A stretch of 35,548 nt of DNA from IMG/VR virus record IMGVR_UViG_646564533_000012, one strand, 5' to 3'. Below the pieces are notes generated by a model. The model was not told the origin of the DNA, did no database searches, and worked only from the letters and a program-made list of their open reading frames with translations. A program made the position numbers and the translations under genes. Of this stretch, positions 3,846-33,947 are shown piece by piece; within the stretch, counting starts at the first letter, position 1, and each line of letters begins with the position of its first letter. This DNA comes from a virus (taxonomy: Duplodnaviria > Heunggongvirae > Uroviricota > Caudoviricetes).

Positions 3846-4049
3846 ATGGCAATTAAGCATTTTCCCGTCGTTCGCTTTACCTCCAGAGGGCGCGAATACG
3901 AGGTCGACGAACGCCTGATTACCACTATCGACAAACATCGTTCGGAAAAGGATGCACACCACATCTACCTCACTGACGGCACTTACTTCTGCGCCACCAA
4001 CGTGGCGCGGGTGAATCTTATCCGACAGGTACAGGAGCCACGCAGATGA
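3846..4049 (+). CDS. hypothetical early protein
   Basis: 67-aa ORF, start/stop overlap with the next ORF. Confidence 0.45.
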   Translation: MAIKHFPVVRFTSRGREYEVDERLITTIDKHRSEKDAHHIYLTDGTYFCATNVARVNLIRQVQEPRR

Positions 4050-4312: not shown

Positions 4313-4608
4313 GCACCATCAACCACCAGAAGCTACGCGAACTGGCATTTGCCCTGCAACGAATGGCAACGCCTCAAAAATTACTGGCGTTTCGCGCAAT
4401 GCTCTCGCCGTCTGCTGTGCTGGCACTGCTGGATGAGCTGGAGCACGCCAGAACCACGGCTCCTGCCATTCGCCTGACACTCCATCATGAAATCGCTGAT
4501 TTCTGCGCAACGTTGGAGGCACCCGGCGAACCGGAAACGCCGGAAGCAATACAGCAAGAGCTGCTGCAACGCATTGACAAGGTTTTTGATTTTTTTCTGA
4601 ACCAGTAA
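4309..4608 (+). CDS. hypothetical early protein
   Basis: 99-aa ORF coupled to the upstream gene. Confidence 0.5.
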   Translation: MSTINHQKLRELAFALQRMATPQKLLAFRAMLSPSAVLALLDELEHARTTAPAIRLTLHHEIADFCATLEAPGEPETPEAIQQELLQRIDKVFDFFLNQ

Positions 4609-4930
4609 GAAACCAGAACATGCACACACAAAAAAACCGCTTGCCATGCCGCAATCGGTCAGGTTACATTTCCGCTGCACCTCATAAAACGGGTGCCGGG
4701 ATTCTCAACCCGATACAGAGCAAAGCGCATAACCGCGCCAGCGGTTTTTTTGTGCGTACTGTATTGCCACGTCTTTTTCGCGTCAGAATTATGGCGGGGC
4801 GTACGGGGCCGACTTCGGTCGGGCCGGATTCTTTGCTCTCCGGTGTTGAGAACCCTGTACGTCTCGCCACCCCGAGATTCTCAACTCTGGATGGTGAGCT
4901 ATTTCTATCACCGAGCAAAGAGGCCACACC
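4609..4930 (+). ncRNA. structured non-coding region (candidate small RNA or protein-binding array)
   Basis: About 320 bp with no credible ORF between coupled early genes; UUCG-loop hairpin (approx 4807..4825); three copies of TTCTCAAC, two direct and one inverted (approx 4702, 4845, 4878). Confidence 0.3.
4731..4753 (+). terminator. putative intrinsic terminator inside the early region
   Basis: AACCGC-GCCA-GCGGTT hairpin followed by TTTTTTTG; coordinates approx. Confidence 0.35.
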
Positions 4931-5161
4931 ATGGCAAACCGCAAACAACAGCGCGCATACGCTGCGCGTCGTCACATCCAGACTGAAATCAACCGTAGAC
5001 TTTTCCGCGCATCACGCGTCGCGCAAATCATGCACATCAATATGCTGCATGAGCGCAGCCACGCACTATCAAACATTTATTCCGCCTCTGTTTTCAGTTA
5101 TCTGGCGGATGATCTGCACGAGCTTCAACAGCTCATCCAGCAGCAAAACAAACTCCATTAA
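4931..5161 (+). CDS. hypothetical small basic protein
   Basis: 76-aa ORF with AAGAGG upstream. Confidence 0.45.
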   Translation: MANRKQQRAYAARRHIQTEINRRLFRASRVAQIMHINMLHERSHALSNIYSASVFSYLADDLHELQQLIQQQNKLH

Positions 5162-5233
5162 TTCCTGTTCCGGGCCTTTCCTGCACCTTGCGGCGGGAGG
5201 CCTTCGCACATCTGTAGTAAAGAGAATTGCAGC

Positions 5234-5623
5234 ATGATTGACGCTCATGACTTCACAAGATGGGTGCGCACACAGGACACCCGTCTGGCTCCCGTTCTTC
5301 AGGGATTATTTGATCTCTACATCCGTGGTCGTGACAACAGAGCACACACCACAAAACCGGAAAATGCAGACACCCTTTATTTCACAGTAGACGACTGCTA
5401 CCGCGTGGACTTCACACCACACGGGCTGGCGTTGCATTGCCTGACACCACACGGAGAATCACTGCTGGCGTATTACGACTCCCCGGCCTCCGTATTTGCG
5501 GCAATGCTGGCGCATCGCACTGCTGGCGGGTGTGCCTCGCTGAGTGAATACACCGCTGAATTTAACCGCCTTTCTGCCCTCTTCTCGCAGGAGTGGCAGC
5601 GCGTGACGGGATACCAGCCATGA
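5234..5623 (+). CDS. hypothetical protein coupled to A
   Basis: 129-aa ORF whose stop overlaps the A start (ATGA). Confidence 0.55.
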   Translation: MIDAHDFTRWVRTQDTRLAPVLQGLFDLYIRGRDNRAHTTKPENADTLYFTVDDCYRVDFTPHGLALHCLTPHGESLLAYYDSPASVFAAMLAHRTAGGCASLSEYTAEFNRLSALFSQEWQRVTGYQP

Positions 5624-8460: not shown

Positions 8461-8501
8461 AGCGCGCACAAAACAGGCAAAAACGGGATTTCAGAATCCC
8501 G
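8411..8501. repeat. two near-identical 18-bp palindromes (CGGGAYTC-N2-GAATCCCG), about 73 bp apart, at the A/parM junction
   Basis: Approx 8411..8428 and 8484..8501, each within a longer conserved direct repeat; candidate ParR-binding centromere/operator, or minus-strand terminators. Confidence 0.45.
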
Positions 8502-8536
8502 TAAACGATTAATTAATCAACATAAGGAAAAGCGAC

Positions 8537-9496
8537 ATGAAAATTTGTATCGACGACGGCTCCACCAACATCAAGCTGGCATGGACTGAGAACGGCGAAC
8601 GCCGCAACGCCATCAGCCCGAACAGCTTCAAGTCGGAATGGTCTGCGCCGTTCGGTGGCACGCAGCCCGCGAACTACATGCTTGATGGCGTGCGCTATGG
8701 TTTTGATCCGGTCAGCGATCGCTTTGTCCAGACGACCGACACGCAATACCAATACAGCGATGTGAATGTCATTGCCATTCATCACGCGCTGGTCAAATCA
8801 GGCATCACACCACAGGAGGTGGATGTGGTTGTCACCCTGCCACTGAGCGAGTATTTCGACACAAACGCACAGCCGGACATGGCCAACATCAACCGCAAAA
8901 AAGCGAACGTTATGCGCCCGGTGGAGTACCAGAACGGCGAAGCATTCACTATCCGTAACGTGCGGGTTATGCCTGAATCCATTCCGGCTGGCTTTAAGGC
9001 ACTGGCTGACATGAGTCCGTTTGAATCCCTGCTGATTGTGGATTTGGGCGGAACCACGCTGGATGTGGCAAAGGTTCAGGGGCAACTGGCAGGTATCAGC
9101 CAGGTGTTTTGCGATCCACACGTAGGCGTTTCTCTGATGGCCGATGCCGTACTGTCGGTGATGGCCACTAACGGTATGCGCACCAGTCACCACATCGCCA
9201 ATACCATTATCGAACATCGCCATGATGAAGCCTGGCTGCGCCAGCACATCCACAATGACGCGCATTACGACAGCCTGATGGCGGTTATTCGTGAAAAGGA
9301 AGAAACACTGAAACAACGAGTGATCCGCGCGCTGGCGGGTTTTTCGGGTTACGGGCGGGTGATGGTTGTCGGTGGCGGGGCGGAGATTGTGGCACCCGCT
9401 ATCCGCGAAGCCTGCGGAGTTAATGCGACTTTCATCGCGGACGGGGTGCCACAGTTTGCTCTGGTTAATGGGCTGTACGCAATGGACAAGGAGTAA
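8537..9496 (+). CDS. parM: ParM/StbA-like actin-type segregation ATPase
   Basis: N-terminus MKICIDDGSTNIKLAW matches the plasmid R1 ParM phosphate-1 motif; similarity continues (SPNSF, YSDVNV, HHAL, LIVDLGGTT); 319 aa. Confidence 0.88.
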   Translation: MKICIDDGSTNIKLAWTENGERRNAISPNSFKSEWSAPFGGTQPANYMLDGVRYGFDPVSDRFVQTTDTQYQYSDVNVIAIHHALVKSGITPQEVDVVVTLPLSEYFDTNAQPDMANINRKKANVMRPVEYQNGEAFTIRNVRVMPESIPAGFKALADMSPFESLLIVDLGGTTLDVAKVQGQLAGISQVFCDPHVGVSLMADAVLSVMATNGMRTSHHIANTIIEHRHDEAWLRQHIHNDAHYDSLMAVIREKEETLKQRVIRALAGFSGYGRVMVVGGGAEIVAPAIREACGVNATFIADGVPQFALVNGLYAMDKE

Positions 9497-9500
9497 ACCA

Positions 9501-9812
9501 ATGACGACACCAACCAGACGGATAAGTTTCTATCTGAAGCCCGCCGCCGTCAAGAACGAAGGCGAAGCATGCACCTGGCTGGACAGCCTTACACCAGAAG
9601 CCCGCAAAAGCGGCCAACGTGTGGCTTTTCTGGCCGGGCTGGCACTTCTGAAAATGAATCCGGCAGAGGCTTACCGACTGGCTGCATGGGCTGACGATGA
9701 GGCGTTATCAGTGACACAAACCAGGACAGAACGCCCCGCGTCACAGCCAGTACCAACCTCACAGATAACCAGTCGGATGGCCGGAAATATCAGGGCGTTA
9801 TTTCCCGAATAA
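9501..9812 (+). CDS. parR: ParR/StbB-like centromere-binding adaptor
   Basis: Track ORF trimmed to the Met behind AAGGAG (MTTPTRRISFYLKP...); ISFYLKP, WLDSL, AFLAGLAL and NIRALFPE align with R1 ParR; immediately downstream of parM. Confidence 0.78.
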   Translation: MTTPTRRISFYLKPAAVKNEGEACTWLDSLTPEARKSGQRVAFLAGLALLKMNPAEAYRLAAWADDEALSVTQTRTERPASQPVPTSQITSRMAGNIRALFPE

Positions 9813-21719: not shown

Positions 21720-22320
21720 TTCGTTGTTACCACCATCAGCCAGCAATTTCATGCGTTGTGCCGAAGCCGTCGGAACACGCATTACAGACATTCCGGTAGA
21801 CCTCAACACGCTGTGGTCGCCGGACACCTGCCCGGTGCATCTGCTGCCTTATCTCGCCTGGGCGTTTTCCGTTGACCGCTGGGATCGCAACTGGCCGGAA
21901 GAGACAAAGCGACAGGTGATTCGTGATGCCTGGCTGATACACCGACACAAAGGGACCATCAGCGCACTGCGAAGAGCCGTGGAGCCTCTCGGCTACCTGA
22001 TTGAAGTAAAGGAGTGGTGGCAACTCAACGAGGAGCCAGGAACATTTCGCATTGTTGTCGGAGTACTTGATCAGGGCATCACCGATGAAATGTATCAGGA
22101 ACTTGAGCGCCTTATTGCGGATGCAAAACCAGTAAGTCGCCATCTGACGGGGCTGGCGATCAGCCTGAGTGTGAACGGAAAGATTTTCGTTGGTACGGGA
22201 TGCTATCACGGCGATGCCCTGACGGTTTATCCCTACACCCCGGAGTCCATTATTGTCGAAGGGGATTATTTCCCTGCCCCAGCCATTCATTTAATTGATA
22301 ATCTGAGAGTAAACGCATGA
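21712..22320 (+). CDS. I: baseplate / tail protein I
   Basis: Track ORF trimmed to MSNSLLPP, overlapping the J stop. Confidence 0.82.
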   Translation: MSNSLLPPSASNFMRCAEAVGTRITDIPVDLNTLWSPDTCPVHLLPYLAWAFSVDRWDRNWPEETKRQVIRDAWLIHRHKGTISALRRAVEPLGYLIEVKEWWQLNEEPGTFRIVVGVLDQGITDEMYQELERLIADAKPVSRHLTGLAISLSVNGKIFVGTGCYHGDALTVYPYTPESIIVEGDYFPAPAIHLIDNLRVNA

Positions 22321-23672
22321 CAGTGAAATACTACGCCATTCTGACTAATCAGGGCGCGGCACGACTGGCTAACGCGACGATGCTCGGCAGTAAGCTGAAT
22401 CTGACGCAAATGGCCGTTGGTGATGCAAATGGTGTGTTACCAACACCAGACCCTGCACAAACAAAACTGATTAACCAGAAACGCATTGCACCGCTGAATC
22501 TTCTGAGTGTTGACCCTAACAATCAGAGCCAGATTATTGCGGAGCAAATCATCCCTGAAAACGAGGGAGGATTCTGGATCCGTGAGATTGGTCTTTATGA
22601 TGATGAAGGTGTACTCATTGCGGTGGCAAACTGCCCGGAAACGTACAAACCGCAGTTGCAGGAAGGCAGTGGACGCACCCAGACTATCCGCATGATTCTG
22701 GTTGTCACGAACACCGAAGCCATCACGCTGAAAATCGACCCGTCTGTGGTTCTGGCAACCCGCAAATATGTGGATGACAAAATCTCAGAGCACGAACAGT
22801 CACGACGTCACCCGGACGCCTCGCTGACCGCAAAAGGTTTTACTCAGTTAAGCAGTGCAATTAACAGTGAATCAGAAACACTGGCCGCAACACCGAAAGC
22901 GGTTAAGGCTGCATATGACCTGGCTAACGCGAAATATACTGCCCAGAACGCCACCACAACACAAAAAGGGATTGTTCAGCTCAGTAGCGCCACGAACAGC
23001 ACGTCTGAAACGCTGGCAGCGACACCAAAAGCTGTTAAGGTGGTAATGGATGAAACGAACAAGAAAGCACCATTAAACAGCCCGGCACTGACCGGAACGC
23101 CAACAACACCAACAGCGCCACAGGGGACTAATAATACCCAGATCGCAAGCACAGCTTTCGTTATGGCCGCGATTGCCGCACTTGTAGATTCGTCACCTGA
23201 TGCACTGAACACGCTGAACGAACTGGCTGCGGCGCTGGGCAATGACCCGAATTTTGCGACCACCATGACTAACGCGCTTGCGGGTAAGCAACCGAAGGAT
23301 GCCACCCTGACGGCGCTGGCGGAGCTTGCTACATCAGCAGATAAACTCCCATATTTTACAGGGGCAGATCGTGCCGCGTTAACCGCGTTGACAAGTGTTG
23401 GACGTGCCATTCTTGGTAAAACCAGCACTCAGGGCGTTCTTGATTACCTTGGTTTGGGGGAAGGCTCTGCGCTGCCCGTTGGTGTGCCCGTTCCATGGCC
23501 CTCAGCCACGCTGCCAACGGGGTGGCTGAAATGTAACGGCGCAGCATTTTCTTCTGAAATGTACCCCAATCTGGCAAAGGCCTACCCCACCAATAAATTA
23601 CCGGATTTACGGGGAGAATTTATTCGTGGCTGGGATGATGGACGCGGTGTGGACATGGGAGAGCATTATTAA
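22317..23672 (+). CDS. H: tail fiber protein H (constant N-terminal part fused to a frameshift-truncated C-terminal cassette)
   Basis: Conserved N-terminus MTVKYYAILTNQGAARLANA; internal SETLAATPKAVK repeats; enters the shared cassette block GLGEGSALPVGVPVPWP at 23451, then terminates early (…GVDMGEHY). Confidence 0.88.
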   Translation: MTVKYYAILTNQGAARLANATMLGSKLNLTQMAVGDANGVLPTPDPAQTKLINQKRIAPLNLLSVDPNNQSQIIAEQIIPENEGGFWIREIGLYDDEGVLIAVANCPETYKPQLQEGSGRTQTIRMILVVTNTEAITLKIDPSVVLATRKYVDDKISEHEQSRRHPDASLTAKGFTQLSSAINSESETLAATPKAVKAAYDLANAKYTAQNATTTQKGIVQLSSATNSTSETLAATPKAVKVVMDETNKKAPLNSPALTGTPTTPTAPQGTNNTQIASTAFVMAAIAALVDSSPDALNTLNELAAALGNDPNFATTMTNALAGKQPKDATLTALAELATSADKLPYFTGADRAALTALTSVGRAILGKTSTQGVLDYLGLGEGSALPVGVPVPWPSATLPTGWLKCNGAAFSSEMYPNLAKAYPTNKLPDLRGEFIRGWDDGRGVDMGEHY

Positions 23673-23881
23673 GCAGCCAAGAGGCTACAAATTTTTCTCA
23701 GCGTGCCGGAAATATAGGCGATGGTGCGGGCCACGCAATTAATTTTCATGATGGCATAGTCGGAAATCAGCCAGGATTTTCACGATTTAATTTCACCAGT
23801 AACTCTGTAGGCGATGGTATAAATTTTGTTGCTGTCAGGCCGCGAAATATCGCATTTAATTACATCGTAAGGGCAGCATGA
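23673..23881 (+). pseudogene. out-of-frame remainder of the H-attached tail-fiber cassette (type E copy)
   Basis: Downstream sequence encodes the rest of the cassette (…IAFNYIVRAA) in another frame; matches the intact inverted copy at 25969..26400 except for one A missing in GACAATGGG. Confidence 0.6.
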
Positions 23882-23888
23882 AAACGTT

Positions 23889-24395
23889 GGTTTGGGGGAA
23901 GGCTCGGCGCTGCCCGTTGGTGTGCCCGTTCCATGGCCTTCAGCCACGCCGCCAACGGGGTGGCTGAAATGTAACGGTGCAGCATTTTCTTCTGAAATGT
24001 ACCCCAATCTGGCAAAGGCCTACCCCGCCAATAAATTACCGGATTTACGGGGAGAATTTATTCGCGGCTGGGATGATGGGCGCGGGGTGGATGCTGGCCG
24101 CGCTTTGCTTAATTGGCAGCCACACACAATTTTGGATCATGCACACTATATGGAATTATGGACCGGGGATGGACTTGCCGCGGGAAGTACACGGGAAGGA
24201 GTAAACCCTGGAATACTGGCTACATACGGGGACGGGGGAATAGTTAAAACAGACGAACCCGGTTTAAAGGTGCCTTCCTCACTACGAGCCATTAGCTCTC
24301 GTAATGTAAAACGGTTTGGTGAAATTAGTGGAAATGTAGGTACAGAAACTCGCCCTCGCAACGTTGCATTTAATTACATCGTAAGAGCCGCATGA
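23889..24395 (+). CDS. alternative tail-fiber C-terminal cassette B (promoterless in this orientation)
   Basis: Begins with the shared block GLGEGSALPVGVPVPWPSATPPTGWLKCNGAAF, unique middle, shared C-terminus ETRPRN.AFNYIVRAA. Confidence 0.7.
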   Translation, partial: GLGEGSALPVGVPVPWPSATPPTGWLKCNGAAFSSEMYPNLAKAYPANKLPDLRGEFIRGWDDGRGVDAGRALLNWQPHTILDHAHYMELWTGDGLAAGSTREGVNPGILATYGDGGIVKTDEPGLKVPSSLRAISSRNVKRFGEISGNVGTETRPRNVAFNYIVRAA

Positions 24396-24402
24396 AAACG
24401 TT

Positions 24403-24882
24403 GGTTTAGGAGAAGGTTCTGCACTGCCCGTTGGTGTGCCCGTTCCGTGGCCCTTAGCAACACCACCAACGGGCTGGCTGAAATGTAACGGTGCAGCATT
24501 TTCTTCTGAAATGTACCCCAAACTGGCAAAAGCCTACCCCACCAATAAATTACCAGACTTACGCGGTGAATTTATCCGTGGCTGGGATGATGGGCGAGGA
24601 ATTGATGCGGCACGCGCTTTATTGAGCATTCAAAACGGGATGTTGGAAAAACACCGCCATATTGTTGTAGCTAACGATGGATATGACACAAAAGATGAAT
24701 GGGAGTTGGCTACGATTTTCAAAAAAACATATACACAAGGCAGGGGGCTTGATGCCACAAATACAGGAGGGAGTTTGATTCCATCACCAACGCTTCATTC
24801 ACGAGGAAGTATTGGTAACACAGGTGGTAGTGAAACCCGCCCCCGCAATATTGCATTTAACTATATCGTGAGGGCGGCTTAG
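24403..24882 (+). CDS. alternative tail-fiber C-terminal cassette C
   Basis: Same shared N-terminal block and C-terminal tail with a distinct, AT-richer variable middle. Confidence 0.7.
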   Translation, partial: GLGEGSALPVGVPVPWPLATPPTGWLKCNGAAFSSEMYPKLAKAYPTNKLPDLRGEFIRGWDDGRGIDAARALLSIQNGMLEKHRHIVVANDGYDTKDEWELATIFKKTYTQGRGLDATNTGGSLIPSPTLHSRGSIGNTGGSETRPRNIAFNYIVRAA

Positions 24883-24888
24883 TTATAT

Positions 24889-25500
24889 TCAACTGGCTGC
24901 TGCCAGTGGTATTTCCGGCAAGTTGATATCTGGTGCCATGTTTATATCCATTGCGTTCAGCGCGTCTATATAATCCAGCACGGCATTAAGCCGGGTGGTT
25001 TCTGCCTGCGTCAACTTCCGCCCGGCCTGCAACTTCAACTGAATCAGACTTATGGAAGCCATTGCCGCATCAGCCAGTGACTGGCGCTTGGTTTCTGCCG
25101 CTTCTACTGCGGCACGATGTTGTGCCTCAGTATCTGTCACCCATTTTTCACCATCCCATTTATCGTATGGTGTGAACGGGGCGATAGTGGTTGTATTTTT
25201 CGGGTAGTCACCCAGCGCCGTGATTTCTTCGGTGTTTCCCGTGTCAGTGCTATAGACGGTTTCACCACGATGGTCTGGCGCATACTCCCATGAACTTAAA
25301 TTCTCCGAACGGCGGATAGCATAGCCCGCTTTATGTGCGCCCGGGGCATCTAAACAGGAATTTGCCGGAATACCGACACCCACAGCAAGATATTCAGTTG
25401 ATTCGGAAATATATTCCCGTGTCTCACCATCATAGTTATAAACGACGATGTTTCCTGCCTGTACGGCAATAAGGTCATCATTTAATATCGCGTTATTCAT
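24889..25500 (-). CDS. tail fiber assembly chaperone (Tfa / gpG-like)
   Basis: 203 aa, convergent with cassettes B and C and directly downstream of cassette D on the minus strand; typical Tfa-type sequence. Confidence 0.8.
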   Translation of the reverse strand: MNNAILNDDLIAVQAGNIVVYNYDGETREYISESTEYLAVGVGIPANSCLDAPGAHKAGYAIRRSENLSSWEYAPDHRGETVYSTDTGNTEEITALGDYPKNTTTIAPFTPYDKWDGEKWVTDTEAQHRAAVEAAETKRQSLADAAMASISLIQLKLQAGRKLTQAETTRLNAVLDYIDALNAMDINMAPDINLPEIPLAAAS

Positions 25501-25958
25501 TATGCGGTTCTCACAATATAATTGAAGGCAATATTGCGTGGGCGGGCTTCATTCCCCCCTGAGGATTCCGTTCTGTATTGACTGGTAAATCTACCGTTAA
25601 TTGCACCTTGCCGGACGGCGTTATCTGTCGACAACAGACTATCCCCTCCTTTGTCATTTGGCACCAGTACCGTGTTATCCCACGCGTCCCATGACCGAAT
25701 ATTATGATAATGACTTCCTGTTAACCACCCCTGCATGCTTAAGATGCCCCTTCCGGCATCCACCCCGCGCCCATCATCCCAGCCACGGATAAATTCACCG
25801 CGTAAGTCTGGTAATTTATTGGTGGGGTAAGCCATTGCCAGTCTGGGATACATTTCAGAAGAAAATGCTGCGCCGTTACATTTCAGCCACCCCGTTGGCG
25901 GCGTGGCTGAGGGCCATGGAACAGGTACACCAACAGGCAGTGCAGAGCCTTCCCCCAA
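25500..25958 (-). CDS. alternative tail-fiber C-terminal cassette D
   Basis: Shared N-terminal block on the minus strand, unique middle, shared C-terminus; stop overlaps the tfa start. Confidence 0.7.
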   Translation of the reverse strand: MGEGSALPVGVPVPWPSATPPTGWLKCNGAAFSSEMYPRLAMAYPTNKLPDLRGEFIRGWDDGRGVDAGRGILSMQGWLTGSHYHNIRSWDAWDNTVLVPNDKGGDSLLSTDNAVRQGAINGRFTSQYRTESSGGNEARPRNIAFNYIVRTA

Positions 25959-25968
25959 ACCAACGTTT

Positions 25969-26454
25969 TCATGCTGCCCTTACGATGTAATTAAATGCGA
26001 TATTTCGCGGCCTGACAGCAACAAAATTTATACCATCGCCTACAGAGTTACTGGTGAAATTAAATCGTGAAAATCCTGGCTGATTTCCGACTATGCCATC
26101 ATGAAAATTAATTGCGTGGCCCGCACCATCGCCTATATTTCCGGCACGCTGAGAAAAATTTGTAGCCTCTTGGCTGCTTAATAATGCTCTCCCATTGTCC
26201 ACACCACGTCCATCATCCCAGCCACGAATAAATTCGCCCCGTAAATCCGGTAATTTATTGGTGGGGTAGGCCTTTGCCAGATTGGGGTACATTTCAGAAG
26301 AAAATGCTGCGCCGTTACATTTCAGCCACCCCGTTGGCAGCGTGGCTGAGGGCCATGGAACGGGCACACCAACGGGCAGCGCAGAGCCTTCCCCCAAACC
26401 AACGTTTTCGTCTTTATCCCTACCTATACCAACTATGTATTTTTCACGAAACAA
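25969..26454 (-). CDS. alternative tail-fiber C-terminal cassette E (intact copy of the cassette fused to H)
   Basis: Shared block starts at 26400; the track ORF extends upstream to 26454 (MFREKYIVGIGRDKDENV); sequence equals the H-attached cassette apart from the 1-nt indel. Confidence 0.7.
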   Translation of the reverse strand: MFREKYIVGIGRDKDENVGLGEGSALPVGVPVPWPSATLPTGWLKCNGAAFSSEMYPNLAKAYPTNKLPDLRGEFIRGWDDGRGVDNGRALLSSQEATNFSQRAGNIGDGAGHAINFHDGIVGNQPGFSRFNFTSNSVGDGINFVAVRPRNIAFNYIVRAA

Positions 26455-26468
26455 AGAGGATGTTTTTT

Positions 26469-27068
26469 ATGCAAATTGGCTATATTCGTGTGTCAACAAA
26501 TGACCAGAACACGGATTTACAACGCAATGCACTGAACTGCGCAGGATGTGAACTGATTTTTGAAGATAAAATCAGCGGAACGAAATCAGCCAGACCGGGA
26601 TTGAAAAAACTGCTCAGAACGCTATCAGAAGGAGATACGCTGGTTGTCTGGAAGCTGGACAGACTGGGCAGAAGTATGAAACACCTGATCACGCTTATTG
26701 AGGAATTGCGGGAAAAAGGTGTTAATTTCCGTAGTCTGACGGACAGCATTGACACATCAACACCCATGGGGCGTTTCTTTTTTCACGTCATGGGGGCTTT
26801 AGCCGAAATGGAACGTGAATTAATTGTAGAGCGTACACTGGCCGGGCTGGCAGCAGCACGCGCACAAGGACGCATTGGCGGACGTCGCCCGAAGTTGACA
26901 AAAGAACAACACGAGCAAATAGCGAGGCTGATTAAAAACGGTCATGACAGGAAACAACTGGCGATCATTTACGACATCGGCATATCGACGATTTATCGTT
27001 ATCACCCTGTAGGCGATATACAGGCTGAAGAAACAACCAGGCAGACTCAGGAAAATGAAAACCGCTAA
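26469..27068 (+). CDS. serine recombinase DNA invertase (Hin/Gin/Cin/Pin family)
   Basis: MQIGYIRVSTNDQNTDLQRNAL...VVWKLDRLGRSMKHLI...MGRFFFHVMGALAEMERELI is near-identical in pattern to Hin/Gin; start behind AGAGGA. Confidence 0.92.
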   Translation: MQIGYIRVSTNDQNTDLQRNALNCAGCELIFEDKISGTKSARPGLKKLLRTLSEGDTLVVWKLDRLGRSMKHLITLIEELREKGVNFRSLTDSIDTSTPMGRFFFHVMGALAEMERELIVERTLAGLAAARAQGRIGGRRPKLTKEQHEQIARLIKNGHDRKQLAIIYDIGISTIYRYHPVGDIQAEETTRQTQENENR

Positions 27069-27090
27069 TCTGACCATTAGCGGTTTTGCG
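27062..27090 (+). terminator. terminator hairpin at the invertase / U convergent junction
   Basis: CCGCTAAT-N6-ATTAGCGG followed by TTTTG; a second GTTTTG-N7-CAAAAC dyad follows; coordinates approx. Confidence 0.4.
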
Positions 27091-27094
27091 TTAA

Positions 27095-27589
27095 TCAAAA
27101 CAGCCCTTTAACGGAGCTGGCCGCGCTGTTAAGGGATGATGTGACCTTGTCTTTGAAGCCGGACAGCATATCACTGAACGATGAGGATTGCAGGCGCTCC
27201 CGCAAATCCTCATCACAGCGTTCAAGAGTCAGTGAAAATTCTATCTTTTTCGCCTTACCGTAGCGATCAAACTCGGAGCGGGTCGTATTCGTTCCGGTCA
27301 GGACATACATGCCGTAAATCTGCCCGACACCATCAATCAGAGGCCAGGGGCGTCCTGTATATGCCTGCGTGGTCAGCAACGAAAGCGACACTTCGCCACC
27401 TGTAATTTCAGGATAAAGCACGCCGGAAAGCACGATGCGATCATCACCTGCACCGATATACTGCCAGCTTGCTGAACGGTTAACACGTTCATTTTTCACA
27501 TGCCGCCAGCTTTTGTTTTGCTGTAACTGCTGATGCGGCAGTGTGCGCAGCTCAAAAACAAACATGCCGTAGATCATCATCATGACCAT
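27095..27589 (-). CDS. U: tail protein U
   Basis: 164 aa; conserved LSGVLYPEITGG and WPLIDG.G.IYGMYV as in P2 gpU. Confidence 0.85.
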   Translation of the reverse strand: MVMMMIYGMFVFELRTLPHQQLQQNKSWRHVKNERVNRSASWQYIGAGDDRIVLSGVLYPEITGGEVSLSLLTTQAYTGRPWPLIDGVGQIYGMYVLTGTNTTRSEFDRYGKAKKIEFSLTLERCDEDLRERLQSSSFSDMLSGFKDKVTSSLNSAASSVKGLF

Positions 27590-27595
27590 GACTCC

Positions 27596-30412
27596 TCAAT
27601 CTTTATCGTAAAAACTGCCACGTCCGGCACGGGCGCGCCGTTCCATCTCTGCCCTGACCATTTCACCGACCAGTTTCGCCAGTTCGCGGGGATTCTGCGT
27701 AACAACGTTATGCAGATGAACATGAATTTCACCGCCAAATCCGGAGGCAACAGGCTCCCGGTTACGGGAAGTTACAGGAACTGATGCCACTGGAGATCGT
27801 ATGGCCTCCGCCACCGGGCGGGAGCTGGCCGCAACAACAGGGACCAGCGCCGGAGGCAGCGGAGCCGGGACCACGGGTGTGATATTAATTGCGGGGGCAG
27901 GCTTACTGACCTGCGCAATCTTCCGCTCCTGCCACTCCCCACGAACAGCAAGTGCGCGGGGCAGGTTCTTAAAGACAATATCGCCGGGGCCAATGCGTTT
28001 TTTCGTCTCATCAACCAGCTTACCTGTGTTATCAGCAATTTTGCTGAGTCTGCGTAGCGTCCCGGTATTGCTGTCTGTGAGCGGTTTGTTGTCTTTGGGT
28101 TTATCACCTCCGGTGCCATTGCCATTTTCCACAGGCTTCGGCGGATTGATTTTCGCAAGGTCCCCCTGAAGCAAGGCAACCTTGTCCTGAAGAATGGCCG
28201 CACGCTGTGCGTCTTCGATTTTCTTGCGCGCCCTTTCCGCTTCATCCGGAAGGACGCCAAGTTTTTCAAGTATCCACGCCAGCGTATCCAGTAGCATTTT
28301 TGCAGGTGTCAGAACAAGCTGTAACGCACCGCCAAGAACGTTACCGAATATCTCGCCAGCACTGGTACATTTATCCAGCGTTTCCTTGCTGGACTCCATC
28401 GGTGACAGCAGCGATTTAAACCAGTTAAACACCTGGCTGATCCCGCTTCCGATTGCGTCAAAAACAGGACCAAACCGTTCAAAGGTTTCGCGCAACGGGG
28501 TCAGCCTTTCCATAATCCCGCTGAACACCCCGGCAAAAAATGCCCTGATGGGATCCCAGTATTTCCAGATAAGAACGGCAGCTCCGGCAAGCGCAGCCAC
28601 GATAAGACCAACCGGACTGAACAGCGCCCCGATAGCGCCTCCCAGTAAAGAAACGGAACCCGTCACCATTCCCCACAGCGCAGGCAACACCCTGACGACA
28701 TTCATTGACCGGGTAAGAATGTCAAAACCAAGACGCAGGGTGGCCAGCTTCCCGTAAAGCACCCCAATAACCAGCGACAACGAGCCAATCGTTGCAGTCA
28801 TTGCCAGCAACGCACCGCCTGCTATCAGTAGCTGGCGCGTCAGTACCGGATGGGCCTGCGCCAGCGAGGTGATTTTTTCAAGCACCCGCGTGAGCCACTG
28901 CGTGACAGAACGCAGCGGACCGTCAACCAGATCACTGATGCGAATACGAAGACCTTCCCATGCGCTGTCGAGATTTTTCAGGTCCCCATCAAGATTATCG
29001 GCCATTACTTTTGCGACGCGATCGGCCTCTCCCCTTGCCCCCTGCAATTCTCTGGTCAGTTTTTGCAGCTCTCCTGAACCAGCCGCCGCAACAAGCGTCT
29101 GCAAACCAACGAACGCCTCTTCTCCGGCGATGTCCTTGAAGAAGGAAACCTGGTCCACCTGTCCGTATTTTTGTGTCGCCTTATAGAGATCAAGCAGCAC
29201 ATCCTCCATCGGGCGCATTTTGCCTCTGGCGTCAGCAACTGACACCCCCAGCTCTTTCAGTGCATCAGCCGCAGCTTTTGGCGGTGATGCAAGGCGGGAC
29301 AGACTTGCGCGCATGGCCGTACCAGCATCGCTTCCGCGAAGACCATTATTGGCAAGCATCCCGGCCATGGCCGCCGCTTCTTCAAGACTGATACCAAGTT
29401 TTGCGGCAACCGGACCGGTATACTTCATGGTTTCGCCCAGCGCGCGTAAATCAGTATTGGTCCGGGTGAATGCCGCTGTCAGCGTATCGCCAACACGGTC
29501 CATTTGATCGGCTGTCAGGTTGAACTGTGTGAGGATATTGGAGCCTATATCAGCCGTCTCGCCGAGTTCGACGCCACCTGCCAGCGCCATATTAAGAACA
29601 CCGGGCAATGCGGCCTGAATGGCCTGCGGAGTAAAACCAGCCATTGCCAGAAAGCTCTGCCCACTGGCGGCATCACTCGCAGTAAACTGTGTTTCAGAGC
29701 CAAGTTTTAACGCCTGCTCACGCAGCGCCTTAAACTGCGGGCTGTTTTTGTCGATTCGCGTCAGTGCCTGAACGCGGGACATCTCTTTGCCGAACCCGAT
29801 CGCAGGCTGCAAAAAACGCCCGGCAGCATAGCCGCCCGCCGCTGCCGCACCAATTGCCAGCGCACCACCTGTTTTCAGTTTCCCCGCGGTTTCCTGCGCG
29901 CGCGAATACCGCTCACGCGCCCGCGTTACACGCGCAAGCGCCTGCCGTTCGCGTTCAAGCTGGTTGTTGTACTGTTCGGTGCGTCTGATGGCCTGCTGGA
30001 TGGTGTTATCGCTGCCTGTCAGGGAAATGCCGTGTCGTTTCAGTTCTCCGCCAAGTTCCCGCATTTTCTGAATTTCCCGTGTGCGCGATTCATTCAGGCG
30101 TTCAAGCCGGGTGCTTAACTGCTGCATCAGCTTTTGTTGTTTTTCGCTGAGCACTGTACCCGTGCGTTGTAACTGATTAAGGGCGTTAAGCTGGCGTCGT
30201 GCTTTCACGATGCCCGCATCCGCTTTACTGACAGCGTCACGGGCGCGCTCAAATGAACGCGCCTGACGCTCGAGATTTTTGATCGCCCCCTGCGTTCGCT
30301 GGATGGAGTCACCAAACTGCCCCATCAGGCGGCGGGCGTTTTCGGCAGGCCGGGTCAGCCTGTCAACGGCGCTGAAAGCGACCCGGATATCAAGAGTCTT
30401 CATTGTCTGCAT
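27596..30412 (-). CDS. T: tail tape measure protein T
   Basis: About 940 aa, helical N-terminal half and Gly/Ala-rich hydrophobic core typical of tape measure proteins; start trimmed to MQTMKTL after the E' stop. Confidence 0.9.
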   Translation of the reverse strand: MQTMKTLDIRVAFSAVDRLTRPAENARRLMGQFGDSIQRTQGAIKNLERQARSFERARDAVSKADAGIVKARRQLNALNQLQRTGTVLSEKQQKLMQQLSTRLERLNESRTREIQKMRELGGELKRHGISLTGSDNTIQQAIRRTEQYNNQLERERQALARVTRARERYSRAQETAGKLKTGGALAIGAAAAGGYAAGRFLQPAIGFGKEMSRVQALTRIDKNSPQFKALREQALKLGSETQFTASDAASGQSFLAMAGFTPQAIQAALPGVLNMALAGGVELGETADIGSNILTQFNLTADQMDRVGDTLTAAFTRTNTDLRALGETMKYTGPVAAKLGISLEEAAAMAGMLANNGLRGSDAGTAMRASLSRLASPPKAAADALKELGVSVADARGKMRPMEDVLLDLYKATQKYGQVDQVSFFKDIAGEEAFVGLQTLVAAAGSGELQKLTRELQGARGEADRVAKVMADNLDGDLKNLDSAWEGLRIRISDLVDGPLRSVTQWLTRVLEKITSLAQAHPVLTRQLLIAGGALLAMTATIGSLSLVIGVLYGKLATLRLGFDILTRSMNVVRVLPALWGMVTGSVSLLGGAIGALFSPVGLIVAALAGAAVLIWKYWDPIRAFFAGVFSGIMERLTPLRETFERFGPVFDAIGSGISQVFNWFKSLLSPMESSKETLDKCTSAGEIFGNVLGGALQLVLTPAKMLLDTLAWILEKLGVLPDEAERARKKIEDAQRAAILQDKVALLQGDLAKINPPKPVENGNGTGGDKPKDNKPLTDSNTGTLRRLSKIADNTGKLVDETKKRIGPGDIVFKNLPRALAVRGEWQERKIAQVSKPAPAINITPVVPAPLPPALVPVVAASSRPVAEAIRSPVASVPVTSRNREPVASGFGGEIHVHLHNVVTQNPRELAKLVGEMVRAEMERRARAGRGSFYDKD

Positions 30413-30928
30413 TCCCGCTGCGAAGTGCCGCCCGCTCACGCCAGCTAACCACTTCGCCGGGCGTCATCATGAAGATTTCGGCGGGCGACCAGTTAAAAAT
30501 GGCGGCGATATCTGCCACCAGATCTTCGATGTGCTCAAAGCACACCAGGGTGATTACGCTGCCGTCTCCTGCACGCTCTTCGCGCCAGAGTCTGGCTCGC
30601 TCATAAAATTTACAGCCACAGCGCACAACTGAATAAAATCGCGTGACGACATTTTTTTAATCATCACTTCATCCAGTCGTGGCGAGGTCACGCGAGGCAA
30701 CAGCGTGAACATGGTATCCGCTTTCAGATTCAGCACATCAGACAGCGACAGACCACGCAGGGATCCAGCCTGTTCAATAGCCCCGGTGATCTCCACATAC
30801 GTGATTTTTTCGCCACCACGCTCAATTGGTCGGGTCAGTTTTACGCCACGTTCGACAGCCATATCCTCACCTGCCGTCACATCATCCGCCACGGTGTTAT
30901 TCCGGGTTTCAGTATCGATGTCTTTCAT
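30390..30928 (-). CDS. tail assembly chaperone E+E' (-1 programmed frameshift product)
   Basis: Seven-A run at approx 30653..30659 on the coding strand (ATT AAA AAA ATG); the -1 frame continues as the 30390..30626 track ORF; analogous to P2 E/E+E' and lambda G/GT. Confidence 0.65.
30554..30928 (-). CDS. E: tail assembly chaperone E
   Basis: 124-aa ORF between FII and T; contains the A7 slippery run. Confidence 0.8.
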   Translation of the reverse strand: MKDIDTETRNNTVADDVTAGEDMAVERGVKLTRPIERGGEKITYVEITGAIEQAGSLRGLSLSDVLNLKADTMFTLLPRVTSPRLDEVMIKKMSSRDFIQLCAVAVNFMSEPDSGAKSVQETAA

Positions 30929-30983
30929 CAGTTGTCTCCTTTTCAGTCAGAGGCGACGCACTGCGCCGCCTGCATATTACTTA

Positions 30984-31496
30984 TCAGCCAAGCCCAAGCG
31001 CGGAACGGATACGGTCAGGCACAATGTCCTTGCCGTCCTTCCGGTAAATGAAGTTCAGCAGGTCAATCTCCCACAGCGGGCGATCGTTAACGCTCAGCTT
31101 GTAGTAGGTGTTTTTAATGGCGTAAGAGTGTGATGTGGCTTCGCCCTGTTTGGCTTCCCCCATATCAATTTCCGTCACACGTCCGCGCATTTCGACTTCA
31201 TACAGGTCGCTTTCTGCATCGGTGTAGTATTCACCCGCAAAACGCAGCAGCGTGCCGTCAATCGTGCCGCCATACTTAAGGAACAGCTCACGAACTGCGC
31301 CCCCCATGACAAAGCTCGCATCAAGCGCGGAGTCGTCCAGACCGAGATCAATACTTACCGCACCCATCATGCCACCACCCCGGTAGCTGTCGGTTTTGCG
31401 CGTCAGCTTAGGCAGAGTGACGGACGTCACCTTACCCACTTCGTTTTCACCATCCACAAACAGCGTAAAAAAGCGAAGATGTTTTGGCACAGCCAT
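30984..31496 (-). CDS. FII: tail tube protein FII
   Basis: 170 aa, size and position as P2 FII. Confidence 0.9.
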   Translation of the reverse strand: MAVPKHLRFFTLFVDGENEVGKVTSVTLPKLTRKTDSYRGGGMMGAVSIDLGLDDSALDASFVMGGAVRELFLKYGGTIDGTLLRFAGEYYTDAESDLYEVEMRGRVTEIDMGEAKQGEATSHSYAIKNTYYKLSVNDRPLWEIDLLNFIYRKDGKDIVPDRIRSALGLG

Positions 31497-32680
31497 CAGG
31501 CACCTCCCAGCACCGCAAATGCGGGTTCAAAGTATTCATCAGTAAACGTCTGGTAAAGCTCCATATCTTCCAGCGGGGGAACAGGCGTATATTTGTAGCG
31601 AATACGCACACGCCCCTGACGTAAATCCGTGGTGCTGTTATCCACCACGTCATACCAGCACTCCGCGCCAATCAGTTTCCCGGCAGTAACCAGTGAATCC
31701 AGTTTTGCCCTGATGGCACTGATAACATCCTTCACGTTCGCAGGCGTCAGTGGACTGTCGATGGTTTCAAACTGCGCTTCCGCAATTGAATCAGCCAACA
31801 CCTGTGCGGTTCGGGTATACACCTCAAAGATGTAGGCGTTCGTTTCCGGTGTGCGGTTGCCCCAGAAGCGGAACCCGTTGCGACGAATAATGGTCGTGAT
31901 TTCTTTGTTGTTGAGGCTGTTGGCATCACTGTCTTCGGCCTGCAACGACCAGAACACATGCCTGGACATCCCCAGCACATTTTTAACCGGAACGTTGGAC
32001 AGCGATTTGTGCCAGCCCTGTTCATGGTCAATGTACGCACGGAGGCCGCACGCATAGGCAGGCGCGGGGAACGTTTCGTTTTTGCCACTTTTGGGGTTGT
32101 AGGCGATGAAGTCCGGCCATAAGAGCATCACCTCACGTTCGTTGAATTTCTGGCGGTAGGTAATCGCCTCAGCCATCGTGTTACAGCCGTGACATGAGGC
32201 ATACACAAACGCGCGCAGTTTACCTGCAATCACGCACAGGGATTTTGTTACAGCCTCCGTGTCCAGCTCCGGCGCGGCCAGAATACGCGGACGGTATCCG
32301 ATGCTTTCATCCTGCTCTGCAACAAGCAGCGCATACATCCCCGTATAGCTGCCGTCATCCTCAGAACCACCGATAACCAGTTGATCCTGCGTCTTTCCGT
32401 CTTCTTCTTTGTGTTCAGCCACGCGAACGACGATCACCTTTGTGCTCACCTGGTCTGCAATGGCCTTAAGCGCACGATAAAGCGTCCCCGTTGTCCCGCA
32501 TTTTCCCAGCACGTCATTGACGCGGATCAGCAGTGTGGGCTTGTTCAGCGGGAACAGCTTCGCGTCCGCATCATCCGCCGTTGCCACGATACCGATAACG
32601 CTGGAATCAACATCGTTAATCGCTGTTACCAGGTCGGTATTTTCCGTAACACGGGCACCATGAAAACGAGTTTCACTCAT
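31496..32680 (-). CDS. FI: tail sheath protein FI
   Basis: 394 aa, size and position as P2 FI. Confidence 0.92.
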   Translation of the reverse strand: MSETRFHGARVTENTDLVTAINDVDSSVIGIVATADDADAKLFPLNKPTLLIRVNDVLGKCGTTGTLYRALKAIADQVSTKVIVVRVAEHKEEDGKTQDQLVIGGSEDDGSYTGMYALLVAEQDESIGYRPRILAAPELDTEAVTKSLCVIAGKLRAFVYASCHGCNTMAEAITYRQKFNEREVMLLWPDFIAYNPKSGKNETFPAPAYACGLRAYIDHEQGWHKSLSNVPVKNVLGMSRHVFWSLQAEDSDANSLNNKEITTIIRRNGFRFWGNRTPETNAYIFEVYTRTAQVLADSIAEAQFETIDSPLTPANVKDVISAIRAKLDSLVTAGKLIGAECWYDVVDNSTTDLRQGRVRIRYKYTPVPPLEDMELYQTFTDEYFEPAFAVLGGA

Positions 32681-32837
32681 AGCTTCAGCCCCTTGTATCC
32701 GTTAAATGATTCGGCAACAATCATCACCCACCACGCGCGTAATCTCACCCCTGCGCCGTTCTCCCGACCCGGCGACAACAAAAAGCAGTAACCCCCTCCG
32801 CACGCACATGCGACCATGCCGCACAGGGAGGGAACAG
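32681..32837. promoter_or_regulatory. divergent promoter region between FI (leftward) and D (rightward)
   Basis: 157-bp gap between two divergent starts; promoters inferred from arrangement only. Confidence 0.3.
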
Positions 32838-33947
32838 ATGACCGACACCACCATGCAATTGCTCAGTCAGGGCACAGACCCCGTGAAAATGCCGGATTTT
32901 GATATTCTTGCGGAGGGTAAAACGCTGTCAGGCGTGGCAGAGCGCCTGATGAGCCTGTCACTGACCGACAACCGGGGATTTGAGGCGGACCAGCTCACCA
33001 TCACGCTGGATGATGCGGATGGTCAGTTGCAGCTACCGCCACGGGGCGCGCGCCTGACGGTTCTCATTGGCTGGAAAGGAGAACCGCTGACAGAAAAAGG
33101 CACTTACATTGTTGATGAAATCGCTCACGAAGGACCGCCGGACAGGCTGACTGTTTCAGCCAGAAGCGCAGATTTTCGGGATGAATTTAACGTTAAACGT
33201 GAGGTGTCCTGGCATGATGTGACCCTTGAGCGTGTGGTATCCGCCATCGCTCATCGGTATGGTCTGAAACCACAAATCAGCGAAATGCTGATGGATATCG
33301 AAATCGACCACGCCGACCAGACCGAAGAAAGCGACATGTCCTTCCTTACGCGCATGGCGGAAATGCTGGGCGCAATCACCACGGTAAAAAGCGGTAATCT
33401 GTTATTCATCATGCCAGGCGGTGGCGTGAACGCACAGGGCCAGCCGTTGCCCTCGTTCGCCATCACGCGCAGCAGTGGCGATCGCCATCAGTTCCGCATT
33501 GCTGACCGCGAAGCGTATACGGGGGTACGCGCTTACTGGCTTGATCTTAATTACGGGAAAAAGAAAAAAGTCAGCGTGAAACGCCGCAAACCGCCAAAAC
33601 CCAAAAAGGAGAAAAGCAGCAGCCGTGAAGGTGATTATATGGAAGGCGCAGAAGGCAATGTGTTTGTGTTACGCAAGACTTATCAGAACGAGCAGGCAGC
33701 AAGACGCGCAGCGGCGGCAAAGTGGCAGCAGCTACAACGCGGAGCCGCAGCGTTCTCCATCACACTGGCACGTGGACGCGCAGAACTCTACCCCGAAATG
33801 CATGGCACGGTAACAGGATTTAAAAGCGAAATTGATAATCAGGACTGGATTATTGCAAAAGCCGAGCACACCATTGATAACAGTGGCTTTACCACGCAGC
33901 TTGAGCTTGAAGCCAAAATCCCGGAATGGATAGCAGAAACAGAGTAA
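32838..33947 (+). CDS. D: tail protein D (late control gene D family)
   Basis: Track ORF 32706..33947 trimmed to the Met behind GGGAGGGAACAG; about 369 aa, size and neighbourhood match P2 gpD. Confidence 0.82.
   Translation: MTDTTMQLLSQGTDPVKMPDFDILAEGKTLSGVAERLMSLSLTDNRGFEADQLTITLDDADGQLQLPPRGARLTVLIGWKGEPLTEKGTYIVDEIAHEGPPDRLTVSARSADFRDEFNVKREVSWHDVTLERVVSAIAHRYGLKPQISEMLMDIEIDHADQTEESDMSFLTRMAEMLGAITTVKSGNLLFIMPGGGVNAQGQPLPSFAITRSSGDRHQFRIADREAYTGVRAYWLDLNYGKKKKVSVKRRKPPKPKKEKSSSREGDYMEGAEGNVFVLRKTYQNEQAARRAAAAKWQQLQRGAAAFSITLARGRAELYPEMHGTVTGFKSEIDNQDWIIAKAEHTIDNSGFTTQLELEAKIPEWIAETE

What the first reader, a model, noticed from the sequence alone, without database searches (positions are those of the whole stretch)
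23451..26400. H-fused cassette is a frameshifted inverted duplicate of cassette E
The cassette currently fused to H and the minus-strand cassette E are the same type (both carry ATLPTGW rather than ATPPTGW) and match over roughly 430 bp in inverted orientation. The H-linked copy lacks one A in GACAATGGG, so H stops early at …GVDMGEHY and the rest of the cassette is out of frame. This is either a genuine inactivating mutation, a phase-variable homopolymer, or an assembly artifact caused by inversion heterogeneity.
Basis: seen in the sequence. Interest (0 to 1): 0.55.

Follow-up and report, generated by a model that had tools for sequence, protein, structure and literature searches.

The report
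Duplicated, frameshifted phage tail-fibre cassette
A prophage tail-fibre gene that swaps its tip by DNA inversion carries one tip cassette twice, and the copy joined to the gene is broken by a one-base deletion; this is most likely a by-product of sequencing a mixed, inverting population, not a new biological switch.

Summary
The cassette fused to tail-fibre gene H (23451-23881, +) and cassette E (25969-26400, -) are the same 434-nt unit. They differ by two synonymous substitutions (23615, 23645) and one missing A (23655/56), which ends H at ...GVDMGEHY (451 aa instead of 521 aa).

The locus is a Min/Gin-type multiple-inversion switch in a P2/P88-like prophage. It has five 26-bp crossover sites, cassettes E*, B, C, D+tfa and E, and an invertase about 75% identical to Mu Gin. 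The window is E. coli O55:H7 CB9615 (CP001846), a 9.5x Sanger assembly from 2010.

The layout H-E*-B-C-tfa'-D'-E'-inv is the union of two legitimate inversion isomers. The broken allele occurs in no other genome. Its three differences lie within 42 nt at the conserved/variable boundary. The other 32.6 kb of the prophage shows only 6 private substitutions and no indels. Other assemblies of this locus show different private duplications, mosaics and frameshifts.

My best reading (about 0.55) is a mixed-isomer assembly chimera plus local base errors. A real duplicate made by recombination between isomers remains possible (about 0.30 with a real frameshift, about 0.10 with an erroneous one). Phase variation is rejected, because the site is only an AA dinucleotide. 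Interest is low.

The parts
22317..23436 (+). Constant part of tail-fibre gene H (P2 gpH-like). In this isomer the ORF runs on to the premature stop at 23670-23672 (451 aa).
   Evidence: ORF. (Pfam Phage_tail_fib, Phage_fiber_2, Collar). (Hconst 99-100% identical in 20 related loci, fused to different cassettes).
23437..23462 (+). Crossover site s1 (TTCTTGATTACC TT GGTTTGGGGGAA). The left half is H-specific and the right half is the cassette start.
   Evidence: motif scan; alignment.
23451..23881 (+). Cassette E* fused to H. It is an E-type copy with substitutions at 23615 and 23645 and a 1-nt deletion at 23655/56, so the E-type reading frame downstream of 23655 is out of frame with H.
23875..23900 (+). 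Crossover site s2 (AGCATGAAAACG TT GGTTTGGGGGAA).
23889..24395 (+). Silent cassette B (167-aa ORF, Collar domain).
24389..24414 (+). Crossover site s3 (CGCATGAAAACG TT GGTTTAGGAGAA).
24403..24882 (+). Silent cassette C. Together with tfa and D it forms the central invertible unit.
24889..25500 (-). The single tail-fibre assembly gene (tfa, 203 aa), downstream of cassette D.
   Evidence: Caudo_TAP_N, Caudo_TAP; annotation in related loci.
25500..25961 (-). Silent cassette D.
25950..25975 (-). Crossover site s4, in inverted orientation.
25969..26400 (-). Cassette E, the intact copy, next to the invertase. The canonical allele is identical in 16 loci.
26389..26414 (-). Outer crossover site s5 (AAGACGAAAACG TT GGTTTGGGGGAA on the minus strand).
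26469..27068 (+). Serine DNA invertase of the Din (Gin/Cin/Pin/Hin/Min) group, 199 aa.
   Evidence: Resolvase + HTH_7. (Mu Gin structures 4m6f/3uj3, E=3e-91, aligned over residues 1-185, about 75% identical).

Best explanation
The region is a Min/Gin-type multiple-inversion tail-fibre switch in a P2/P88-like prophage of E. coli O55:H7 CB9615. A Gin-like serine invertase recombines five 26-bp sites (three in + orientation, two in - orientation). The constant part of H therefore becomes fused to alternative C-terminal receptor-binding cassettes of 143-180 aa.

The E cassette appears twice because the deposited sequence joins two different inversion isomers of the same locus: H-E-B-C-tfa'-D'-inv and H-B-C-tfa'-D'-E'-inv. 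The join most likely happened in silico, during assembly and finishing of a low-coverage clone-based Sanger shotgun of a culture containing several isomers.

The one-base deletion and the two neighbouring substitutions in the H-linked copy are probably local consensus errors. They sit where reads from H-E and H-B molecules stop being alignable, at the end of the 205-nt conserved cassette head.

Shown: the anatomy, the identity of the recombinase family, the existence of many isomers in related genomes, the uniqueness of the lesion and its clustering. Inferred: that the join and the lesion arose in assembly and not in the cell.

Either way the lesion is not programmed. A single s1 x s5 inversion would fuse H to the intact E copy.
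For: (1) Anatomy and family.

(2) Related loci carry the same cassettes once each in many permutations, for example H-B-G-F-D-tfa-C'-E'-inv, H-G-D-tfa-C'-B'-F'-E'-inv and H-E-C-tfa'-D'-inv. This shows that inversion isomers exist and that the window equals two of them superimposed.

(3) The truncated 451-aa H was found on one contig only in the whole collection, CP001846. The E* haplotype is absent from 5,426 complete E. coli genomes, from IMG/VR and from all fetched loci, while the canonical E haplotype is invariant in 16 loci.

(4) Against its two nearest relatives (EC43 and EcE.CRE.COL), the window has only 6 private substitutions and 0 indels in 32,570 nt outside the switch. Three private differences within 42 nt then has P of about 8e-8 under that rate. 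The chance that 3 random differences in 434 nt fall within a 42-nt span is 0.026.

(5) Both substitutions equal the state of cassette B, which is fused to H in the alternative isomer.

(6) Other assemblies show the same class of private anomaly at this locus. 19AR0253 has a base-level E/D mosaic next to the invertase (87% identity, 15 gaps). EcE.CRE.COL has a tandem E with a chimeric head that is a singleton. 23CRST001 has a perfect inverted E duplicate. 19AR1321, EC43 and EC291 have E frameshifts at other positions.

(7) CB9615 was a 9.47-fold ABI3730 plasmid-clone shotgun assembled with PHRAP/CONSED (PMC2806823).
Against: [quoted passage not shown]

The rest of the window looks accurate, with no private indels in 32.6 kb.

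Both substitutions are synonymous third-position changes, which random base-calling errors need not be.

The E* head is not a simple E/B segment mosaic. Only 2 of 6 E/B-informative positions in 23615-23655 carry the B state, so a PHRAP read-switch alone does not explain it.

Homologous recombination between sister genomes in different isomer states would give exactly the same layout in vivo.

No reads were available, so none of this is direct.
Confidence: 0.55

Rival explanations
1. The inverted duplication and the frameshift are both genuine. Two copies of the prophage (sister chromosomes or replicating genomes) in different inversion states recombined homologously within the collinear B-C-tfa'-D' stretch. 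One product has E at both ends and the reciprocal product has none. The H-linked copy then acquired, or acquired during heteroduplex repair at the end of the conserved head, two B-like substitutions and a 1-nt deletion. It is now a pseudo-cassette, and the phage can still express H-D or H-E after one inversion.
For: The layout is exactly the predicted recombinant of two isomers (logic). Cassette number varies from 3 to 6 among single-contig assemblies of closely related prophages, so gain and loss do occur. Heads and variable parts are re-paired in ways that are shared by independent assemblies (cC-G and cX-C in both EC43 and L013), which shows real homologous exchange inside the conserved heads. 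Both substitutions are synonymous and B-like. The authors report PCR verification of repeats. Two other complete genomes also carry two E copies.
Against: No duplicate is shared by two genomes. Each is private and structurally different, although prophages only 6-16 differences apart in 32.6 kb would have had to acquire them independently. Three changes in 42 nt is far above the background rate. One comparable case (19AR0253) is visibly a garbled consensus.
Confidence: 0.3
2. The duplication is genuine but the frameshift is not. The strain really has two E cassettes, and the missing A (with the two nearby substitutions) is a base-calling or finishing error in a thinly covered stretch.
For: The differences are clustered in 42 nt, while 165 nt upstream and 225 nt downstream are identical. 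The haplotype is a singleton. In 23CRST001 the two inverted copies are 100% identical, as expected for a recent duplication.
Against: The evidence against a real duplication is the same as for the previous rival. The assembly has no other private indel in 32.6 kb.
Confidence: 0.1
3. The missing A is a programmed on/off device, either slipped-strand phase variation at a homopolymer or a site read through by ribosomal frameshifting.
For: None beyond the fact that a 1-nt indel lies in a run of identical bases (AA).
Against: The run is two bases long. All 16 other E alleles read GACAATGGG. Indels in other assemblies fall at different positions. Restoring the frame needs a -1 shift at GAC ATG GGA, which contains no X XXY YYZ slippery heptamer (read directly from the sequence).
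Confidence: 0.02

Closest known systems
Min multiple-inversion system of plasmid p15B (Din-family invertase; Iida et al. 1990 as cited in PMC6906374; details from my own knowledge of Sandmeier/Iida/Arber work)
   Same: A Gin-like serine invertase lies next to an array of several crossover sites inside the 3' part of a tail-fibre gene. Cassettes with a shared 5' head and variable tails are shuffled by inversions. The E-type cassette of the window is also found at 96-97% identity on about 95-kb P1/p15B-like plasmids.
   Different: The system here sits in a P2/P88-like chromosomal prophage. This assembly has five sites (up to seven in relatives with six cassettes), against six in p15B. There is only one tfa gene, in the central unit. 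Direct sequence identity to p15B Min was not tested.
Gin/G segment of phage Mu, Cin/C segment of P1, Pin/P region of e14
   Same: The invertase is about 75% identical to Mu Gin over 185 residues. Sites are 26-bp imperfectly palindromic crossover sites with a central dinucleotide. Inversion swaps the tail-fibre C-terminus.
   Different: Those systems have one invertible segment with two alternatives, each with its own assembly gene (U/U'). Here there are four to six alternatives and a single tfa.
P88-like (Xuanwuvirus) and P2-like prophages of E. coli
   Same: The whole window is a P2-family prophage between ihfA and btuC. Phage records P884B11, 520873 and 503458 match H, the invertase and gpU in the same order. 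738 of 5,426 complete E. coli genomes hold at least 80% of the left 22 kb.
   Different: The reference phages carry fewer cassettes. The duplicated and frameshifted E copy is private to CB9615.
R64 shufflon (Rci)
   Same: It is a multi-cassette inversion array that changes the C-terminus of an adhesin (PilV). Assemblies of such regions represent one of many co-existing isomers (PMC9881135, for the class).
   Different: The recombinase is a tyrosine recombinase, with different sites and a different target protein.

Membership tests
Din-family (Gin/Cin/Pin/Hin/Min) DNA-inversion system | Small serine recombinase with an N-terminal resolvase catalytic domain and a C-terminal HTH, closely related to Gin/Hin | tested here: met
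   Pfam Resolvase + HTH_7. Mu Gin structures 4m6f/3uj3, E=3e-91, about 75% identity over residues 1-185, with the GY(I/V)RVSTNDQ catalytic motif conserved.
Din-family (Gin/Cin/Pin/Hin/Min) DNA-inversion system | 26-bp crossover sites made of two imperfect inverted half-sites around a 2-bp core, present in inverted orientation | tested here: met
   Five sites share (A/T)AAC(C/G) TT GGTTT(G/A)GG(G/A)GAA, three on + and two on -. The resemblance to hixL (TTCTTGAAAACCAAGGTTTTTGATAA) is recalled from memory and was not tested against a database.
Din-family (Gin/Cin/Pin/Hin/Min) DNA-inversion system | Fis-dependent recombinational enhancer inside the 5' part of the invertase gene | not tested
   No tool result. 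It is inferred only from the 75% identity to gin.
Din-family (Gin/Cin/Pin/Hin/Min) DNA-inversion system | Inversion actually occurs, so that alternative isomers of the same element are observed | tested here: met
   Twenty related loci carry the same cassettes in different orders and orientations, with H fused in frame to B, C, D, E, F or G. This was not shown within CB9615 itself.
Multiple-inversion (Min-like) tail-fibre switch | More than two crossover sites and more than two alternative 3' gene segments sharing a conserved head | tested here: met
   Five sites and five cassettes of four types. The conserved head is about 205 nt and 86-95% identical between types.
Slipped-strand phase-variable (contingency) homopolymer | A tract of many identical bases whose length varies between or within strains | tested here: not met
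   The tract is AA versus A. AA is invariant in 16 other loci. No other genome has the A allele.
Programmed ribosomal frameshift site | A slippery heptamer at the shift site that allows the required -1 shift | tested here: not met
   The sequence GTG GAC ATG GGA GAG CAT TAT TAA has no X XXY YYZ motif before the stop.

The most novel reading that the evidence does not exclude
The duplicate is real and records a general mechanism. Homologous recombination between two copies of an invertible array that are in different inversion states produces one product with a cassette at both ends (one copy free to decay) and one product lacking it. This would explain why near-identical P88-like prophages carry 3, 4, 5 or 6 cassettes and why heads and tails of cassettes are re-paired.
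Probability: 0.3. Interest if true: 0.4.

Novelty: already known. Interest (0 to 1): 0.15.

Why it matters
The main value is as a caution. Reference assemblies of inverting multi-cassette loci (tail fibres, shufflons, hsdS) can contain cassette duplications, chimeric heads and frameshifts that look like pseudogenes or phase-variable sites. These may reflect isomer mixtures in the sequenced culture. For this prophage, the annotated 451-aa truncated tail fibre of CB9615 should not be taken as evidence that the phage is defective. An intact E copy and the D cassette are each one inversion away from H. If the duplication is real, it would illustrate how cassette repertoires expand and shrink, which is of modest interest to phage host-range evolution.

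Tried and rejected
- I looked for the frameshifted allele elsewhere. The 44-nt E*-specific pattern scan of IMG/VR gave 0 hits, and a pattern accepting either allele (A or AA) found one contig, with the intact allele. Megablast of 151-nt and 73-nt windows against 5,426 complete E. coli genomes gave a best match equal to the canonical E allele, three differences away. An exact-protein lookup of the 451-aa H found only CP001846.
- I looked for a natural donor of the two substitutions, meaning any cassette head with the E* haplotype. None was found among 17 head haplotypes in 20 loci. A simple gene-conversion tract from B is rejected, because intermediate E/B-informative positions keep the E state.
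- I tried to find a close relative of CB9615 to test inheritance. The private sheath variant (I52) occurs in one further assembly (Logan SRR26665227), but that 7.7-kb contig ends inside the invertase gene and says nothing about the cassettes.
- I tried to fetch the RefSeq record NC_013941.1 for PGAP's view of the locus. It is not in the collection.
- NCBIfam gave no family above cut-off for H, tfa or the cassette.
- The sigma-70 promoter scan of 23300-27200 found fewer sites than in shuffles and none upstream of the minus-strand cassettes. It is uninformative, since P2 late promoters are not covered.
- I considered and rejected phase variation and programmed frameshifting (see rivals).
Full report
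**Observation**

The finding is accurate. A global alignment of 23430-23900 (+) with 25950-26420 (-) shows that the two sequences are the same unit from the crossover core onward. There are 433 nt in the H-linked copy against 434 nt in the minus-strand copy. The differences are two substitutions (23615 A vs C, 23645 C vs T) and one missing A: a single A at 23655 versus AA at 26195-26196, that is GACATGGG versus GACAATGGG. The repeat finder reports the same thing as two arms offset by one base (I4 and I1). H therefore ends at 23672 after 451 residues (...GVDMGEHY), while the minus-strand copy has an open frame. Both copies have ATLPTGW, and cassettes B, C and D have ATPPTGW. Putting the A back gives a 521-aa H-E fusion. 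Its cassette part is identical to the annotated H of 19AR0253. It differs from DLI.5a by two residues (L399P, N426S) and from 23CRST001 by one (A450V).

**What the locus is**

The window is a P2-family prophage inserted between ihfA and btuC.

- Downstream of baseplate genes V, W, J and I lies tail-fibre gene H (Pfam Phage_tail_fib, Phage_fiber_2, Collar).
- The end of H is followed by an array of Collar-domain cassettes, one tail-fibre assembly gene and a 199-aa serine recombinase (Resolvase + HTH_7).
- The recombinase aligns with the Mu Gin structures 4m6f/3uj3 at E=3e-91 and about 75% identity.
- Five 26-bp sites with the pattern ...AAAC(C/G) TT GGTTT(G/A)GG(G/A)GAA occur at 23437, 23875 and 24389 (+) and at 25950 and 26389 (-).
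- Each cassette starts at a site, has a head of about 205 nt that is 86-95% identical between cassettes, a type-specific tail, and a shared ...NIAFNYIVRAA end.
- The order here is H-s1-E*-s2-B-s3-[C, tfa', D']-s4-E'-s5-invertase.

This is a Din-type multiple-inversion switch, closest in kind to Min of p15B. E-type cassettes also occur at 96-97% identity on about 95-kb P1/p15B-like plasmids.

**Source**

The exact 451-aa H occurs on a single contig in the large collection. That contig is CP001846.1, E. coli O55:H7 CB9615. The genome was produced in 2010 from a 9.47-fold ABI3730 plasmid-clone shotgun assembled with PHRED/PHRAP/CONSED. The authors state that repeats and low-quality regions were checked by PCR sequencing (PMC2806823). 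The record is not in the RefSeq-based E. coli collection available here.

**Comparative picture**

- The common repertoire is six cassettes (B, C, D+tfa, E, F, G), each present once, in many permutations. H is fused in frame to B, C, D, E, F or G. Smaller sets also exist ({C,D,E}, {C,D,G,E} and two five-cassette sets). Inversion isomers of this element are therefore abundantly documented.
- E occurs twice in only four assemblies:
  - CB9615, where the copies are inverted and the H-linked copy is broken;
  - EcE.CRE.COL, where they are in tandem and the second copy carries a D-type head. That junction is a singleton among 5,426 genomes;
  - 23CRST001, where they are inverted and 100% identical, including strain-specific SNPs, with B missing and an IS inserted in tfa;
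  - 19AR0253, where a garbled base-level mosaic of E and D sits next to the invertase, at 87% identity with 15 gaps.
- Frameshifts in E-type cassettes are annotated or visible in 19AR1321, EC43 and EC291, always at other positions.
- None of these anomalies is shared by two genomes.

**Is the lesion ordinary mutation?**

EC43 and EcE.CRE.COL carry essentially the same prophage. Outside the switch, the window has 6 private substitutions and no private indel in 32,570 nt. At that rate, three private changes in the 434-nt cassette has P of about 8e-5, and three within 42 nt has P of about 8e-8. Three changes placed at random in 434 nt fall within 42 nt with P=0.026.

The canonical E haplotype across this stretch is invariant in 16 loci, and the E* haplotype is a singleton. 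The changes sit in the last 42 nt of the shared head, with the deletion at the point where cassette types stop being alignable. Both substitutions equal the state of cassette B. They are synonymous. Intermediate E/B-informative positions keep the E state, so the pattern is neither a simple conversion tract nor a simple read switch.

**Interpretation**

H-E-B-C-tfa'-D'-inv and H-B-C-tfa'-D'-E'-inv are both legitimate isomers of a four-cassette array, two inversions apart. The window is their union. Two processes could produce that union. One is in-silico joining of reads from different isomers through the collinear B-C-tfa'-D' stretch. The other is real homologous recombination between two genome copies in different states.

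I favour the in-silico origin (about 0.55) for four reasons:
- every duplicate found is private to one assembly and structurally different, even among prophages a handful of SNPs apart;
- one case is visibly a mixed consensus;
- the lesion is a local cluster at the alignability boundary with B-like states, as expected if H-B molecules contributed to the H-E consensus;
- the data were low-coverage clone reads from a lysogen culture.

Several points keep the real-duplication readings alive, at about 0.30 with a real frameshift and about 0.10 with an erroneous one:
- the authors report PCR verification of repeats;
- the rest of the window is accurate;
- both substitutions are synonymous;
- real head/tail re-pairings shared by independent assemblies exist (cC-G and cX-C in both EC43 and L013).

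Phase variation and programmed frameshifting are rejected. The tract is AA, it is invariant elsewhere, and there is no slippery heptamer.

**Consequences**

If the sequence is taken at face value, the phage in this isomer makes a tail fibre that lacks about 70 C-terminal residues. A single inversion restores a complete gene: s1 x s5 fuses H to the intact E, and s1 x s4 fuses H to D followed by tfa. The lesion is not a regulatory device under any reading.

**Novelty and score**

The system belongs to a long-known kind, and this prophage type is present in hundreds of E. coli genomes. The specific feature is most likely not biological, and if real it is a private pseudo-cassette. Interest is low (0.15). 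The most novel surviving reading is inter-isomer recombination as the engine of cassette gain and loss. It has probability about 0.3 and modest interest.

Noticed in passing
window 24889-25500 (-), with cassettes C (24403-24882, +) and D (25500-25961, -): There is only one tail-fibre assembly gene, and it sits behind cassette D in the central invertible unit. In this isomer, and in every isomer with C facing H (L003, L017, L021), tfa is antisense to the H operon and C has no assembly gene of its own. Mu and P1 differ, because each orientation carries its own U/U'. How tfa is expressed in those states is unexplained.
   Followed up: partly
window 27095-32680 (-) versus 32706-33947 (+): The tail genes FI, FII, E, T and U lie on the strand opposite to H and to gpD/ogr. 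The block is therefore inverted relative to the P2 order H-G-FI-FII-E-T-U-D (P2 order from my own knowledge), with the invertase gene at one edge. The arrangement is conserved in all related loci and in P88-like phage records.
   Followed up: partly
window 25969-26454 (-): The silent E cassette has an upstream in-frame extension across the outer crossover site to a TTG at 26454. This gives a 161-aa ORF that gene callers annotate as a protein in at least 36 blocks of the collection. It is probably an annotation by-product of a silent cassette.
   Followed up: no
L009/L022 (EC43), L013, L007/L010 (EcE.CRE.COL), L024 (23CRST001): Conserved heads and variable tails of cassettes are paired differently in different genomes. 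Examples are cC-G and cX-C in EC43 and L013, cX-D and cD-E in EcE, and a B-like head on D in 23CRST001. Site-specific inversion at the 26-bp sites cannot do this, so homologous exchange inside the 205-nt heads (or assembly chimerism) must occur.
   Followed up: partly
L006 (19AR0253) 5397-5900; L005 (EC291) 2719-6817: These are published complete genomes with a garbled, base-level mosaic cassette (E/D) or with six frameshifted or partial tail-fibre pseudogenes in this locus. They look like consensus from mixed isomers or long-read indel errors.
   Followed up: partly
L024 (23CRST001) 6751-8700: The tail-fibre assembly gene of this related prophage is interrupted by an IS4-like ISVsa5 element.
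   Followed up: no
E-type cassette, window 25969-26250: The same cassette type is found at 96-97% identity on many P1/p15B-like plasmids of about 90-100 kb (205 plasmid places). This indicates that cassettes are shared between P2-like prophages and P1-like phage-plasmids.
   Followed up: no
window about 8537-9812 (equivalent to L022 27606-28881): This P2-like prophage carries genes annotated in its relatives as plasmid segregation protein ParM and a partitioning/stability protein. A Hok/Gef toxin gene lies at the ihfA-proximal end, near the window's 3' end.
   Followed up: no
window 4509, 10156, 11836, 16499, 17755, 32526: These are the only six positions outside the switch where CB9615 differs from both EC43 and EcE.CRE.COL. 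At least three are nonsynonymous: C94S in a ClpX-type zinc-finger protein, P76S in the holin-region ORF and T52I in the sheath. A fourth, at 4509, is nonsynonymous only in an unconfirmed ORF. The sheath variant recurs in Logan sample SRR26665227.
   Followed up: partly
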